The notes under the pieces were generated by a model, which saw nothing but the letters and a program-made list of their open reading frames with translations, did not search any database and had not been told where the DNA came from. A DNA stretch of 64,000 nucleotides from Gammaproteobacteria bacterium Ga0074134 (GTDB taxonomy: Bacteria > Pseudomonadota > Gammaproteobacteria > Ga0077554 > Ga007554). Position numbers and translations under genes: made by a program. The stretch's first letter is position 1. The number at the start of each line of letters is the position of its first letter. The stretch spans positions 4,548 to 68,547 of the forward strand of contig LNEJ01000065.1 in assembly GCA_001464965.1 (NCBI GenBank), read 5' to 3'. Of this stretch, positions 59,417 to 62,119 are shown one piece after another.

Positions 59417-62119
59417 GTGAGGAGTAACCCCGCCATGCGTAACCGGCAAAATCCGATTTTATGCCGTATTGGCCTGGTTTTTTGCGCCGTGGCGGGTTTA
59501 TTCTCCGTTCCGCAGGCGAGTGCGGAGAGTTACACCATCAAAGATCTGGGCGCCAATATCATCCCCTATGACATCAGCAACAACAACATTATTACCGGGA
59601 TAGATGCGAATCAATCGCCTCCTGTGGCAATGGTGCTTAAAGACGGAGTAATGCAGCGTATCGCGCCAGCGACCGTGGCAAGCCGGGGGAACAGTGTCAA
59701 CAGCGCTGGGATAGCAGTGGGGCATGAATATACGAATTCCACGCCGCAGCGTGCCTTTCTGTGGCAGGAAGGCAAGGGCATAAGCTACTTCGATGCCAGC
59801 GCTTTCGACGCGCGCGGTGTCAATGAGCTGGATCAAGTAGTAGGAACGGCGTTGGTAAGCGGGCAGCCCCGTGGGTTCATCTATAACTATACCACCGGGC
59901 GTATGCGCTCGCTCACGACACCGGCACTGGCTGGAAGTGAATACGAGATCAACGCCATTAACAATTTTGGGTCACTCGCGGGCAGCGCCATCGATTCGGC
60001 GGGCACCCAGTTTGCCTTTTATATCGATGCCACGGAGACGAAGCGATACAATTTTGGAACACTCGATGGGTTGGGTTTTACCTCCAGCCAGGCGAGTGCC
60101 ATCAATGACGCCAATCAAGTAGTCGGCTGGGCATTCAAGGAGCCGCTCTCCGACAGCGCCAGGCGCGCCTTTGTCTGGGTGCAAGGCCCCGGCATACAGG
60201 ATCTTGGTGTGATCGGCAGCGACGTCGGCAGCGTCGCCAACGATATCAACAGCGCCGGGCATGTGGTGGGCTACTCCGCGCTCAACGACGCTGGCGCCAC
60301 CCGCGCCTTTTTTCATGACCGGAAGAGCGGGGGGGTGGCTGCCCTGGCAGCCGAAGTAGTGAACATTGGTTCTCGGCCGGTAACCTTGGTGTATATCGGC
60401 ACGAACAGCAATGGCTTTTTCAGGAGTGTAGATGGGGGTGCGAGCATCGTTTCCCGGAATGCCGGGTTGGGCAATCTCAACATCACGGCGCTTGCTTTAG
60501 GAGCCGCAGGTACTCTAACCCTTTATGCCGGGACCAGTAGCGGTGTGTATAAGAGCTTTGATGCGGGCGATGTCTGGACCGCCATCAACAATGGGCTGGT
60601 CTATTCCGACAACAGTACGCCCCCAAGGCAGATTGTGCCCCAGATCACGGCGCTGCTGGTTGACCCGCGGTTTCCTGACGTTATCTATACCGGCACCCCT
60701 GTTGGAATGTATAGAAGTACTGATGGCGGCAACAATTGGGCGAAGTTTAATGATGGCATCGTTCAAATTCCAGTCATCAATGATCTGGCTGCTGGCAAAT
60801 CCGGCAGTGGCTCCACGATTATTTACGCTGCCACGAGCGGCGGTGTCTATGCGAGCGTCGCGGGAGCGCGCTGGGAATTAATACAGGGAAACCTAGCGGA
60901 GCAGAACATTAGATCCATCCGGCCTGGTGCGGGTGTGCTTTATGTAGGTGTCGGCACCAATATATATAAGGGTGTGTTCGACGTGGGCGGCTGGCAGTGG
61001 ACTCAGCTTAATGATGGTCTTGCCGGAGGCGTGGTGCGAACACTGCGCACCTATTGTCCTGGCACGCCATGTACCATTTATGCTAGTTTAAGCAGTGGTG
61101 TGTACAAACTGATCGATGGACAGAGCACCTGGGAGGCCATGGCCAAGACGGGGCTTACAGATCCCGACGTTCTCGCTCTGTCGGTCGTGCCCACGACGCT
61201 CAATCCCACTGTCTTTGCCGGGACCCTGAGCGGCATGTTCCGCATCGCCGAAGGGAACGCAAGCTGGACATTGACCAACAACATGCAGGATCTCAACGGC
61301 CTGATCCCGGCAAATTCCGGTTGGCTTCTCTTCAATGCCTCTGGTATCAATAACGCCGGGCAAATTGTTGGCTGGGGCGCATTCAACGGGCAGATGCACG
61401 GCTTTCTGCTGACCCCCTCTCTGGAGGGGGTGGCAAAGGTGCCAACGGCGAAGCTCTCCATCACAAAAACCGTGTCCCCCGGCCCTTACCAGCAATATGT
61501 TCCGGTCACATTCACCCTTACAGTAACCAATAACGGTCCCGACAAAGCCACGGGCGTGGTGGTGGCCGACTGGCTGCCGGATAACGTCATTTTTCGTTCC
61601 ACGCAGGCAACGTCATGCGACGCGACCAACGATAACATCCTGACCTGCAAATTAGGCGATTTGGATGTCGGCAAAAGCGTGTCCGTCAGGGTTGTTGTGA
61701 GTCCAAATGGCCCGGATGTCACGTTTAACAACACCGCCCGCGTTATCTCCAATGAATCCAATCCCGAGTTTTCCAGCATCGGCAACTCGTCGGCCGGCGC
61801 ATCGACCAACAAATGCTTTATCGCCACTGCTGCCTATGGCTCCTTCCTGGATCCGCATGTCCAGGTGTTGCGTGATTTCAGGGACAGACACTTGCTGACC
61901 AATACGCTGGGTCGAGACTTCGTGGCGTGGTATTACCGGAATTCTCCGCCTCTTGCGGCGTTTATCGCCCGGCACGAAGGCTTGAGGATGGCCGCACGGG
62001 CGGCGTTGACGCCCGTGGTATATGCGGTGAAGTATCCCTGGCCTGCCTTGGGACTATTTCTAGTGGGGGCGACGGGCCTGTTGATGGGCTGGAGGCGACG
62101 GACTTTGCTAGCAGCCTGA
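59417..62119 (+). CDS. Large secreted multi-domain protein: HAF-family repeats, BNR/Asp-box beta-propeller repeats, DUF11 domain and a C-terminal [10 protein letters not shown] box with a TM anchor.
   Basis: 900 aa. Signal peptide. Repeated INxxGxVVGW/Y...AFxW units. S.DGGxxW Asp-boxes ([30 protein letters not shown]). DUF11-like [23 protein letters not shown]-terminal [28 protein letters not shown] followed by a hydrophobic helix. Confidence 0.7.

What the first reader, a model, noticed from the sequence alone, without database searches (positions are those of the whole stretch)
59417..62119. 900-aa secreted protein combining HAF repeats, BNR/Asp-box propeller, DUF11 and a [11 protein letters not shown]-terminal box
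It has N-terminal and internal HAF-type repeats (INxxGxVVGW..AFLW), several S-x-D-G-G-x-x-W BNR units and a DUF11 beta-sandwich. It ends with [28 protein letters not shown]...[17 protein letters not shown] followed by a hydrophobic helix and RRR. That looks like a conserved C-terminal sorting or anchoring box rather than random sequence. HAF proteins usually end in PEP-CTERM, and this different terminus suggests an undescribed surface-anchoring route or a cell-surface enzyme/adhesin.
Basis: partly seen in the sequence, partly recalled or inferred. Interest (0 to 1): 0.58.

Follow-up and report, generated by a model that had tools for sequence, protein, structure and literature searches.

The report
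Envelope protein with known CFI-box C-terminal anchor
The gene encodes a large exported double-propeller protein whose conserved C-terminal box is real, but it is already catalogued as the very widespread "CFI-box-CTERM" domain, an anchoring or sorting module whose mechanism nobody has yet worked out.

Summary
The ORF is real (59417-62119, +). The likely start is ATG 59435, giving 894 aa. It has a Sec signal peptide, HAF repeats on both sides of a BNR-type beta-propeller, a DUF11 beta-sandwich and a short linker. It ends with [10 protein letters not shown]... plus a hydrophobic helix and RRR.

The C-terminal box is not undescribed. It matches NCBIfam NF041770 "CFI_box_CTERM" end to end (102.6 bits, cutoff 40). 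NCBI already names proteins after this domain.

The box is very common: 31,297 cluster representatives at 50% identity match it, across many phyla. Its Cys sits a fixed ~101 residues from the C-terminus. In 16, 12 and 7 of 93 sampled members it follows a "choice-of-anchor" D, U or Q passenger domain. It is also the most conserved part of this protein among orthologs (79% against 44-59%).

No paper mentions it. No sortase-like gene is conserved next to it in 80 diverse loci or in this window.

One lineage fuses the CFI box, helix and RRR to a weakly TraB-like outer-membrane barrel. This resembles the MYXO-CTERM TraA/TraB pair of Myxococcus.

Verdict: this is a new member of a known but mechanistically orphan family. 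The "sorting or anchoring box" reading is supported. The "undescribed" reading is not.

The parts
59419..59424 (+). Shine-Dalgarno-like GAGGAG upstream of ATG 59435. The GTG at 59417 overlaps it.
   Evidence: Read directly from the sequence. Public gene calls start at this ATG (P0105, 894 aa).
59435..62119 (+). Gene for the HAF / BNR-propeller / DUF11 / CFI-box-CTERM protein. It is 894 aa; the mechanical ORF from GTG 59417 is 900 aa. Amino-acid numbers elsewhere in this report use the 900-aa frame.
59435..59524 (+). Sec-type signal peptide ([30 protein letters not shown]|ES). It has a basic n-region, a hydrophobic core and an AxA site.
   Evidence: The Kyte-Doolittle peak of 2.08 at aa 11-36 was the only segment above 1.5 with a 19-residue window. 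The cleavage site is inferred from the AxA rule.
59525..60334 (+). N-terminal HAF-repeat, beta-rich region (aa 37-306).
   Evidence: TIGR02913 HAF_rpt 72.2 bits, 4 stretches. Pfam DUF3466 29 bits. AF2 shows all-beta with pLDDT mostly 85-93.
60335..61294 (+). BNR/Asp-box-type beta-propeller (aa 307-626), with one canonical and three degenerate Asp-boxes.
   Evidence: Motifs. Homologs carry PF15902, PF14870 and PF02012. AF2 model. Foldseek matches double-propeller proteins BT4663/BT4673 and GH74.
61307..61429 (+). Extra HAF repeat after the propeller ([24 protein letters not shown]).
   Evidence: Motif at aa 644. It is 65% conserved among orthologs. AF2 places strands at 630-661 in 894-aa numbering.
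61454..61762 (+). DUF11 (CLIPPER) beta-sandwich stalk domain (aa 680-782).
   Evidence: PF01345 E=5.7e-20. TIGR01451 E=6e-10.
61763..61813 (+). Low-complexity Ser/Asn-rich linker. It is Gly-rich in most family members.
   Evidence: AF2 pLDDT is below 50 at aa 775-808 in 894-aa numbering. Family alignment.
61814..62020 (+). CFI-box-CTERM domain (aa 800-868). It starts with invariant Cys800 ([10 protein letters not shown]), followed by amphipathic helices that carry LRxFRD and SPP motifs.
   Evidence: NF041770 covers 1-69/69, 102.6 bits against cutoff 40. Invariant columns. AF2 of the last 120 aa is all-alpha, pLDDT 84.8.
62039..62092 (+). C-terminal hydrophobic helix [18 protein letters not shown] (aa 875-892), the predicted membrane span.
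   Evidence: Kyte-Doolittle 15-mer maximum of 1.95 at aa 877. Leu-rich in family members. Helical in AF2.
62093..62101 (+). RRR cluster (aa 893-895), the predicted cytoplasmic stop-transfer signal.
   Evidence: Sequence. An Arg cluster is conserved in the family.
58573..59415 (+). speE (spermidine synthase), 19 nt upstream and on the same strand. It is the conserved neighbour and is probably co-transcribed.
   Evidence: Pfam assignments. No promoter-like or terminator-like site lies between the two genes.

Best explanation
The gene encodes a Sec-exported envelope protein.

Passenger: a tandem beta-propeller made of a HAF-repeat part and a BNR/Asp-box part, followed by a DUF11 Ig-like stalk. 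It most likely binds a ligand (adhesin or sensor) and is unlikely to be an enzyme.

C-terminal module: the passenger is joined by a flexible linker to a CFI-box-CTERM module (NCBIfam NF041770).

Steps shown by sequence:
- The signal peptide directs export.
- The C-terminal hydrophobic helix plus RRR stops transfer. The protein is first held in the cytoplasmic membrane with the passenger outside and the Arg cluster inside.
- The 69-aa box next to the membrane begins with the only unpaired Cys of the mature protein. It is predicted to form a small helical bundle that continues into the membrane helix.

Inferred step: this box is the anchoring and sorting element. A factor encoded elsewhere in the genome would recognise it. 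The Cys may be modified and the helix possibly removed, as with the Cys-containing MYXO-CTERM, JDVT-CTERM and CGP-CTERM signals. This would fix or relocate the passenger at the cell surface.
For: - Family membership: NF041770 matches full length at E=7e-30.
- Spread and modularity: 31,297 representatives match at E<=1e-3. At least 600 exact CFIATAA[YF]G sites occur in species genomes of Nitrospirota, Desulfobacterota, Gammaproteobacteria, Bacillota, Phycisphaerae, Gemmatimonadota and CPR. Passengers include NHL, FN3, YD/RHS, subtilase and PKD domains.
- Fixed position: the Cys lies 89-125 residues (median 101) from the C-terminus in 95% of 143 representatives. Here it lies 101 residues from the end.
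- Anchor slot: 16, 12 and 7 of 93 representatives carry choice-of-anchor D, U or Q domains. The HAF-related DUF3466 family carries GlyGly-CTERM in Shewanella (PMC3237569).
- Selection: the box is the best-conserved segment among orthologs, 79% against 44-59% for the passenger domains.
- Cys800 has no partner. The other Cys residues of the mature protein lie close together as 547/552 and 734/744.
- Structure: AF2 predicts an all-alpha module, pLDDT 84.8.
- Outer-membrane link: five representatives and locus L005 fuse the box, helix and RRR to a second signal peptide and a barrel. The barrel weakly matches the N-terminal part of Myxococcus TraB, at best E=1.3e-10. TraB is the partner of the MYXO-CTERM protein TraA (PMC3325183; PMC11980579).
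- Passenger fold: Foldseek matches double-propeller plus Ig-like sensors BT4663/BT4673 and GH74 enzymes.
Against: - A 69-aa folded helical domain between the Cys and the membrane helix is unlike known tripartite sorting signals. In those, a short motif abuts the helix (Haft 2023 preprint).
- No protease, sortase or other polytopic membrane family recurs near CFI genes. Clustering of 80 loci found nothing shared beyond the CFI proteins themselves. The census of 55 multi-span ORFs gave at most 3 per family, and exosortase appeared twice.
- Nothing of the kind is in this window or in ortholog loci.
- The barrel fusion was seen in only 1 of 80 loci, and its TraB score is far below the model cutoff (39.9 against 700).
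- The box also occurs in monoderm Bacillota and in CPR, so an outer-membrane route cannot be general.
- No experiment or paper exists.
Confidence: 0.55

Rival explanations
1. The box is a static anchor only. The CFI box with its helix is a permanent, unprocessed inner-membrane tether. Its helical domain next to the membrane serves for packing or oligomerisation at the membrane surface. In this Gram-negative organism the protein stays in the periplasm, and no dedicated enzyme exists.
For: - No conserved neighbouring enzyme was found.
- The domain is long and confidently folded, and it continues into the membrane helix.
- It occurs in monoderms, diderms and CPR alike.
- The helices are amphipathic, for example H4 with a hydrophobic moment of 1.25.
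Against: - A plain anchor does not explain an invariant unpaired Cys and about 20 near-invariant polar and aromatic positions across phyla.
- It does not explain why the box is more conserved than the passenger.
- It does not explain pairing with choice-of-anchor passengers that elsewhere use processed signals.
- It does not explain the fusions to an outer-membrane barrel.
- Substrates of known many-to-one sorting systems are also scattered in genomes (established knowledge of PEP-CTERM and GlyGly-CTERM). Lack of adjacency is therefore weak evidence.
Confidence: 0.35
2. The protein is a secreted or surface glycoside hydrolase (GH74-like, sialidase-like or F510_1955-like). Catalysis by the passenger is the main point, and the C-terminus is only a tether.
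For: - The F510_1955 glycosylhydrolase model gives a partial hit, E=4e-22.
- Foldseek matches GH74 xyloglucanases at E~1e-13.
- Asp-box motifs are present.
Against: - The F510_1955 score is 78.6 against a cutoff of 175, in fragments only.
- Pfam BNR is below its cutoff.
- Foldseek TM-scores are 0.2-0.3 with about 10% identity. The top hits are non-catalytic sensor domains BT4663/BT4673.
- Homologs are mostly labelled as Ycf48- or sortilin-type propellers.
- Catalytic residues were not examined.
Confidence: 0.08
3. The C-terminal box is a chance or lineage-private sequence with no general role.
For: None found.
Against: - It matches the curated model NF041770.
- 31,297 representatives match a profile of the box.
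- At least 600 genomic sites occur in many phyla.
Confidence: 0.01

Closest known systems
NCBIfam NF041770, CFI-box-CTERM domain-containing proteins
   Same: - The match is full length (model positions 1-69 of 69, 102.6 bits).
- The domain sits at the C-terminus.
- The Cys lies 101 residues from the end, as in the family median.
- A hydrophobic helix and an Arg cluster follow it.
   Different: - The passenger combination HAF + BNR propeller + DUF11 belongs to one gammaproteobacterial ortholog group (P0105-P0129).
- The residue before the Cys is Lys, not the usual Gly run.
- The family has no published function.
[quoted passage not shown]
   Same: - It has an invariant Cys in the signature, then a transmembrane helix, then an Arg cluster at the extreme C-terminus of exported proteins.
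- It is attached to many unrelated passengers.
- One CFI lineage is fused to a weakly TraB-like barrel, echoing the traA-traB operon.
   Different: - About 70 conserved helical residues separate the Cys from the helix, where these signals have a few.
- No NCBIfam model for these signals was listed at E<=1.
- No Pfam CPBP family appeared among the 25 most frequent families in the census of nearby multi-span ORFs.
- Cleavage and lipidation are untested.
PEP-CTERM/exosortase and GlyGly-CTERM/rhombosortase systems
   Same: They occupy the same slot behind HAF/DUF3466-type and choice-of-anchor passengers. The architecture of signal peptide, passenger and C-terminal helix with basic tail is the same.
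   Different: - There is no PEP or GlyGly motif and no model hit.
- Exosortase genes lie near only 2 of 80 CFI loci.
It was not tested here.
Periplasmic double-propeller sensor domains (BT4663/BT4673) and GH74 xyloglucanases
   Same: The overall passenger layout is two beta-propellers followed by an Ig-like domain (Foldseek E~1e-15 to 1e-13).
   Different: - Sequence identity is about 10% and TM-scores are 0.2-0.3.
- There is no kinase or response-regulator output.
- There is no evidence for GH74 catalytic residues.

Membership tests
CFI-box-CTERM (NCBIfam NF041770) | Score above the curated cutoff with full-length model coverage | tested here: met
   102.6 bits against 40, E=7.3e-30, model positions 1-69 of 69 at aa 800-868.
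CFI-box-CTERM (NCBIfam NF041770) | Invariant Cys-Phe-Ile start (CFIATAA) located near the C-terminus | tested here: met
   [10 protein letters not shown] starts at aa 800, 101 residues from the end. The family median is 101 and the 5-95% range is 95-125.
CFI-box-CTERM (NCBIfam NF041770) | N-terminal signal peptide, and a hydrophobic helix plus basic cluster after the box | tested here: met
   A signal-like segment at aa 11-36 has an AxA site. The helix is at 875-892 and RRR at 893-895.
Processed tripartite C-terminal sorting signal (sortase, exosortase, rhombosortase or myxosortase type) | Short signature motif immediately before the transmembrane helix | tested here: not met
   About 70 conserved residues, predicted as helices H33-46, H50-72 and H74-92 of the 120-aa model, lie between the Cys motif and the helix.
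Processed tripartite C-terminal sorting signal (sortase, exosortase, rhombosortase or myxosortase type) | A cognate processing enzyme that co-occurs with the signal | tested here: inconclusive
   No recurrent neighbour was found in 80 loci, in the window or in ortholog loci. Genome-wide phylogenetic profiling is not possible with these tools.
Processed tripartite C-terminal sorting signal (sortase, exosortase, rhombosortase or myxosortase type) | Cleavage and/or covalent attachment of the mature protein | not testable with these tools
   This needs proteomics or biochemistry.
PEP-CTERM (TIGR02595) | PEP motif, helix and basic tail recognised by the model | tested here: not met
   No such family was listed at E<=1 in the NCBIfam scan.
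HAF repeat proteins (TIGR02913) | Repeat model above its cutoff | tested here: met
   72.2 bits against 22.65, in 4 stretches. Motifs lie at aa 94, 277 and 644.
DUF11 / CLIPPER (PF01345, TIGR01451) | Domain model above its cutoff | tested here: met
   PF01345 scores 72.2 bits against 24.6. TIGR01451 scores 38.9 against 24.
BNR/Asp-box repeat (PF02012) | Repeated SxDxGxxW motifs scoring above the Pfam gathering score | tested here: not met
   13.6 bits against 27, with one canonical and three degenerate motifs. A propeller fold is supported only by the AF2 model and Foldseek.
F510_1955 family glycosylhydrolase (NF045728) | Equivalog score above the cutoff | tested here: not met
   78.6 bits against 175, with fragmentary coverage.

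The most novel reading that the evidence does not exclude
The CFI box may be a genuine, still orphan C-terminal protein-sorting or attachment system. It would be among the most widespread such systems, with more than 30,000 protein clusters across many phyla.

In this reading, a folded helical module next to the membrane presents an invariant Cys. The Cys would be covalently modified, or handed over by a yet unidentified enzyme. In some diderms the protein would then pass to a TraB-like outer-membrane barrel.

This would be mechanistically distinct from the short-motif sortase, exosortase, rhombosortase and myxosortase signals.
Probability: 0.3. Interest if true: 0.65.

Novelty: new member of a known kind. 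Interest (0 to 1): 0.3.

Why it matters
For this locus the result is mainly a correction. The 'new' terminus is a catalogued domain, and the protein is one more member of its family.

The wider point is that CFI-box-CTERM is very common yet has no publication, no structure and no known partner. It is therefore an open problem in prokaryotic surface-protein biogenesis.

The data gathered here give concrete handles for an experimental or phylogenetic-profiling attack:
- the fixed position of the box and its unpaired invariant Cys;
- its pairing with choice-of-anchor passengers;
- conservation higher than in the passenger;
- the absence of an adjacent enzyme;
- a lineage-specific fusion to a TraB-like barrel.

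Tried and rejected
- An exact look-up of the 900-aa product found nothing, because the database start is ATG 59435.
- A literature search for CFI-box, CFIATAA and NF041770 found 0 papers.
- A six-frame scan of the window for further CFI boxes found only this one.
- Foldseek of the CFI-module model against the PDB gave no meaningful match, best E=9.9.
- A profile search of the box against PDB sequences gave only E~0.3 noise.
- Pfam has no model covering aa 800-868.
- All-against-all clustering of 4,832 ORFs from 80 CFI loci found nothing shared by more than about 20% of loci apart from the CFI proteins and their antisense shadows.
- An HMM of the fused barrel, searched against those ORFs and the window, hit only L005.
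- A Pfam census of 55 multi-span ORFs near CFI genes found no recurrent family.
- An intein/Hedgehog-type 'G|CF' autoprocessing idea was considered and dropped. The module is predicted all-alpha, the residue before the Cys is not conserved, and the domain is too short for a Hint fold.
- A Cys/His/Asp catalytic triad was dropped because the His of DPH is replaced by Glu or Gln in about a quarter of members.
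Full report
**Observation**

The mechanical ORF 59417..62119 (+), 900 aa from GTG, exists as described. The biologically likely start is ATG 59435. It is preceded by GAGGAG at 59419-59424. Public gene calls give an 894-aa product that is 100% identical (P0105). The 900-aa product is not on record and the 894-aa one is. Amino-acid numbers below use the 900-aa frame unless stated.

The N-terminus has a basic n-region, a hydrophobic core (Kyte-Doolittle 2.08) and an AxA site...PQASA|ES.

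Domain matches:
- NCBIfam finds HAF repeats (TIGR02913, 72.2 bits, 4 stretches), a DUF11-type repeat and, below its cutoff, the F510_1955 glycosylhydrolase model (78.6 against 175).
- Pfam finds DUF11 at aa 680-782 and DUF3466. BNR is only sub-threshold.
- Only one canonical Asp-box is present (STDGGNNW, aa 434), with three degenerate ones. 'Several SxDGGxxW units' is therefore generous.

An AF2 model built on 25 orthologs (mean pLDDT 79.6) shows these segments, in 894-aa numbering:
- all-beta segments at 33-300 and 301-615;
- a further HAF-type blade at 630-661;
- a beta-sandwich at 674-771;
- a disordered linker;
- a helical tail.

Foldseek places the model nearest to double-propeller plus Ig-like periplasmic sensor domains (BT4663/BT4673) and GH74 enzymes. 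E-values are about 1e-15 to 1e-13, but TM-scores are only 0.2-0.3 and identity is about 10%.

**The C-terminal box**

[10 protein letters not shown] begins at Cys800 (nt 61814). It is the only such motif in the window. It matches NCBIfam NF041770 'CFI_box_CTERM' over the whole model, positions 1-69 of 69, at 102.6 bits against a cutoff of 40 and E=7e-30. NCBI already names proteins 'CFI-box-CTERM domain-containing protein' (P0092, P0101, P0104).

The domain has no Pfam model. None of the 8 million papers searched mentions it.

**How widespread and how constrained**

- A search with the last 120 aa found 104 short proteins or fragments at 47-72% identity. Their passengers include NHL, FN3, YD/RHS, subtilase and PKD domains.
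- A profile of 64 boxes, searched with HMMER against 1.84 billion cluster representatives, gave 31,297 hits at E<=1e-3 and 24,684 at E<=1e-10.
The phyla include Nitrospirota, Desulfobacterota, Gammaproteobacteria, Bacillota, Phycisphaerae, Gemmatimonadota, Campylobacterota and a CPR lineage.
- Some genomes or loci carry several copies: L024 has three, and L028, L050 and L080 have two each. BMS3Bbin05 and one Nitrospirales MAG each appear twice.
- In 143 top representatives, the Cys sits 95-125 residues from the C-terminus in the 5-95% range, with a median of 101. Here it sits exactly 101 from the end.
- Invariant or near-invariant positions include C, F, I, A, T, A, A, G, then L-R-x-F-R-D, G, Y, S-P-P, A, R and L-x-P. 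A Leu-rich span and an Arg cluster follow.
- Among orthologs of this protein, the box is the best-conserved segment: 79% mean identity against 44-59% for the passenger domains and 46% for the helix and tail.
- The mature protein has five Cys. Residues 547/552 and 734/744 are local pairs, which leaves Cys800 unpaired.

**Structure of the module**

AF2 on the last 120 aa with 64 homologs gives pLDDT 84.8. It predicts an all-alpha arrangement: a short helix on CFIATAAY, three amphipathic helices and the terminal hydrophobic helix (hydrophobic moments). Neither Foldseek against the PDB nor a profile search of PDB sequences finds a relative.

**Is it a sorting or anchor signal?**

The layout fits the logic of C-terminal sorting signals described by Haft. 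It has a signal peptide, a passenger, a low-complexity linker, a Cys-led signature, a hydrophobic helix and an Arg cluster. [quoted passage not shown] The difference is large, though: about 70 conserved, folded residues separate the Cys from the helix.

Evidence from domain combinations is supportive. Of 93 representatives scanned, 16, 12 and 7 carry choice-of-anchor D, U and Q domains respectively. By NCBIfam's naming convention (my knowledge), these are passengers found in front of alternative C-terminal anchors. DUF3466, the Pfam relative of HAF repeats, carries GlyGly-CTERM in Shewanella baltica (PMC3237569).

**Search for a partner**

The window itself contains no sortase-like gene. Its contents include speA, speE, three DUF4124 genes, pilBCD, pilSR, uvrD, 2-oxoglutarate dehydrogenase, glcDEF-like genes, fic and an IS element.

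Orthologs at 47-66% identity keep the order speA(-), speE(+), this gene(+), DUF4124(-). They bring no candidate enzyme either.

Across 80 diverse CFI loci with up to 10 kb flanks:
- All-against-all clustering found no family in more than about 20% of loci, apart from the CFI proteins themselves.
- Only 55 ORFs with four or more predicted spans exist, in 33 loci, and their Pfam families do not recur. The maximum is 3 per family, exosortase appears twice, and no Pfam CPBP or rhomboid family is among the 25 most frequent families shown.

This excludes a generally adjacent enzyme. It does not exclude a distant one, because substrates of known many-to-one systems are also dispersed.

**A Rosetta-stone lead**

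Five representatives with unrelated passengers (P0266, P0274, P0307, P0336, P0352) and the Nitrospirota locus L005 share one architecture. Past the box, helix and Arg cluster they continue into a second signal-peptide-like segment with an AxA site. A region of about 265 aa follows, ending in ...RYRLFIGxRxxL/F.

This region gives a weak match to the N-terminal part of Myxococcus TraB. The best match is E=1.3e-10 at 39.9 bits against a cutoff of 700, covering model positions 17-291 of 522. It also gives a weak DUF3187 hit.

traB is co-operonic with traA, the prototype MYXO-CTERM protein, and is required together with it (PMC3325183). TraA is cleaved by myxosortase and displayed on the surface (PMC11980579).

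The parallel suggests that, at least in that lineage, CFI proteins work with an outer-membrane barrel. It is seen in only 1 of 80 loci and is absent from this window, so I treat it as a lead and not as the general mechanism.

**Conclusion**

The protein is a Sec-exported, C-terminally membrane-anchored double-propeller protein with a DUF11 stalk. Its C-terminus is a bona fide CFI-box-CTERM domain.

I consider it most likely (0.55) that the box acts as the anchoring and sorting element, read by a factor encoded elsewhere, possibly through its Cys. The main rival (0.35) is a static, unprocessed inner-membrane anchor. A hydrolase role for the passenger is weakly supported (0.08).

The finding is a new member of a known, mechanistically orphan family.

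Noticed in passing
window 59415-59437: The ORF's GTG start (59417) lies inside a GAGGAG ribosome-binding site. ATG 59435 is the likely start, giving 894 aa, the length that public gene calls use.
   Followed up: yes
window 58573-59435; L085, L088, L086: The gene follows speE (spermidine synthase) by 19-20 nt on the same strand, here and in orthologs at 63-66% identity. The gap is 260 nt in a 47% ortholog. No promoter-like or terminator-like site lies between them, so co-transcription with polyamine synthesis genes is likely. No functional link is apparent.
   Followed up: partly
window 62369-63933 (minus strand): Three tandem DUF4124 genes lie here. The last one is fused to a ComEA-like helix-hairpin-helix domain. 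The same arrangement is conserved downstream of the orthologs.
   Followed up: partly
window 10708-16031, compared with L085 and L088 positions 1-5200: A block of Kdo transferase, an NHL-repeat propeller and multihaem/c-type cytochrome genes sits directly next to speA in related genomes. In this window it is about 45 kb away, which implies a rearrangement. A DDE transposase lies at 3236-4579.
   Followed up: no
P0266, P0274, P0307, P0336, P0352; L005 548-2149: CFI-box proteins with different passengers are translationally fused, after the helix and Arg cluster, to a second signal peptide and a barrel. The barrel weakly resembles the N-terminal part of Myxococcus TraB. It was found in 1 of 80 genome loci, from a Nitrospirota MAG.
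   Followed up: partly
P0227-P0230 (for example P0230, 1331 aa): A few proteins carry two CFI boxes, each with its own hydrophobic helix. One is internal and one terminal. They may be true tandem architectures or merged adjacent genes.
   Followed up: no
window 30971-34935 and 25856-29044: A type IV pilus assembly cluster (pilB, pilC, pilD) and the pilS/pilR two-component system are present. PilD is the only membrane peptidase seen in the window, and it is a prepilin peptidase.
   Followed up: no
window 39801-41021 (minus strand): A Fic/DOC family protein lies between a sugar-kinase-like gene (SBD_N/NBD_C) and glycolate-oxidase-like FAD/Fe-S genes.
   Followed up: no
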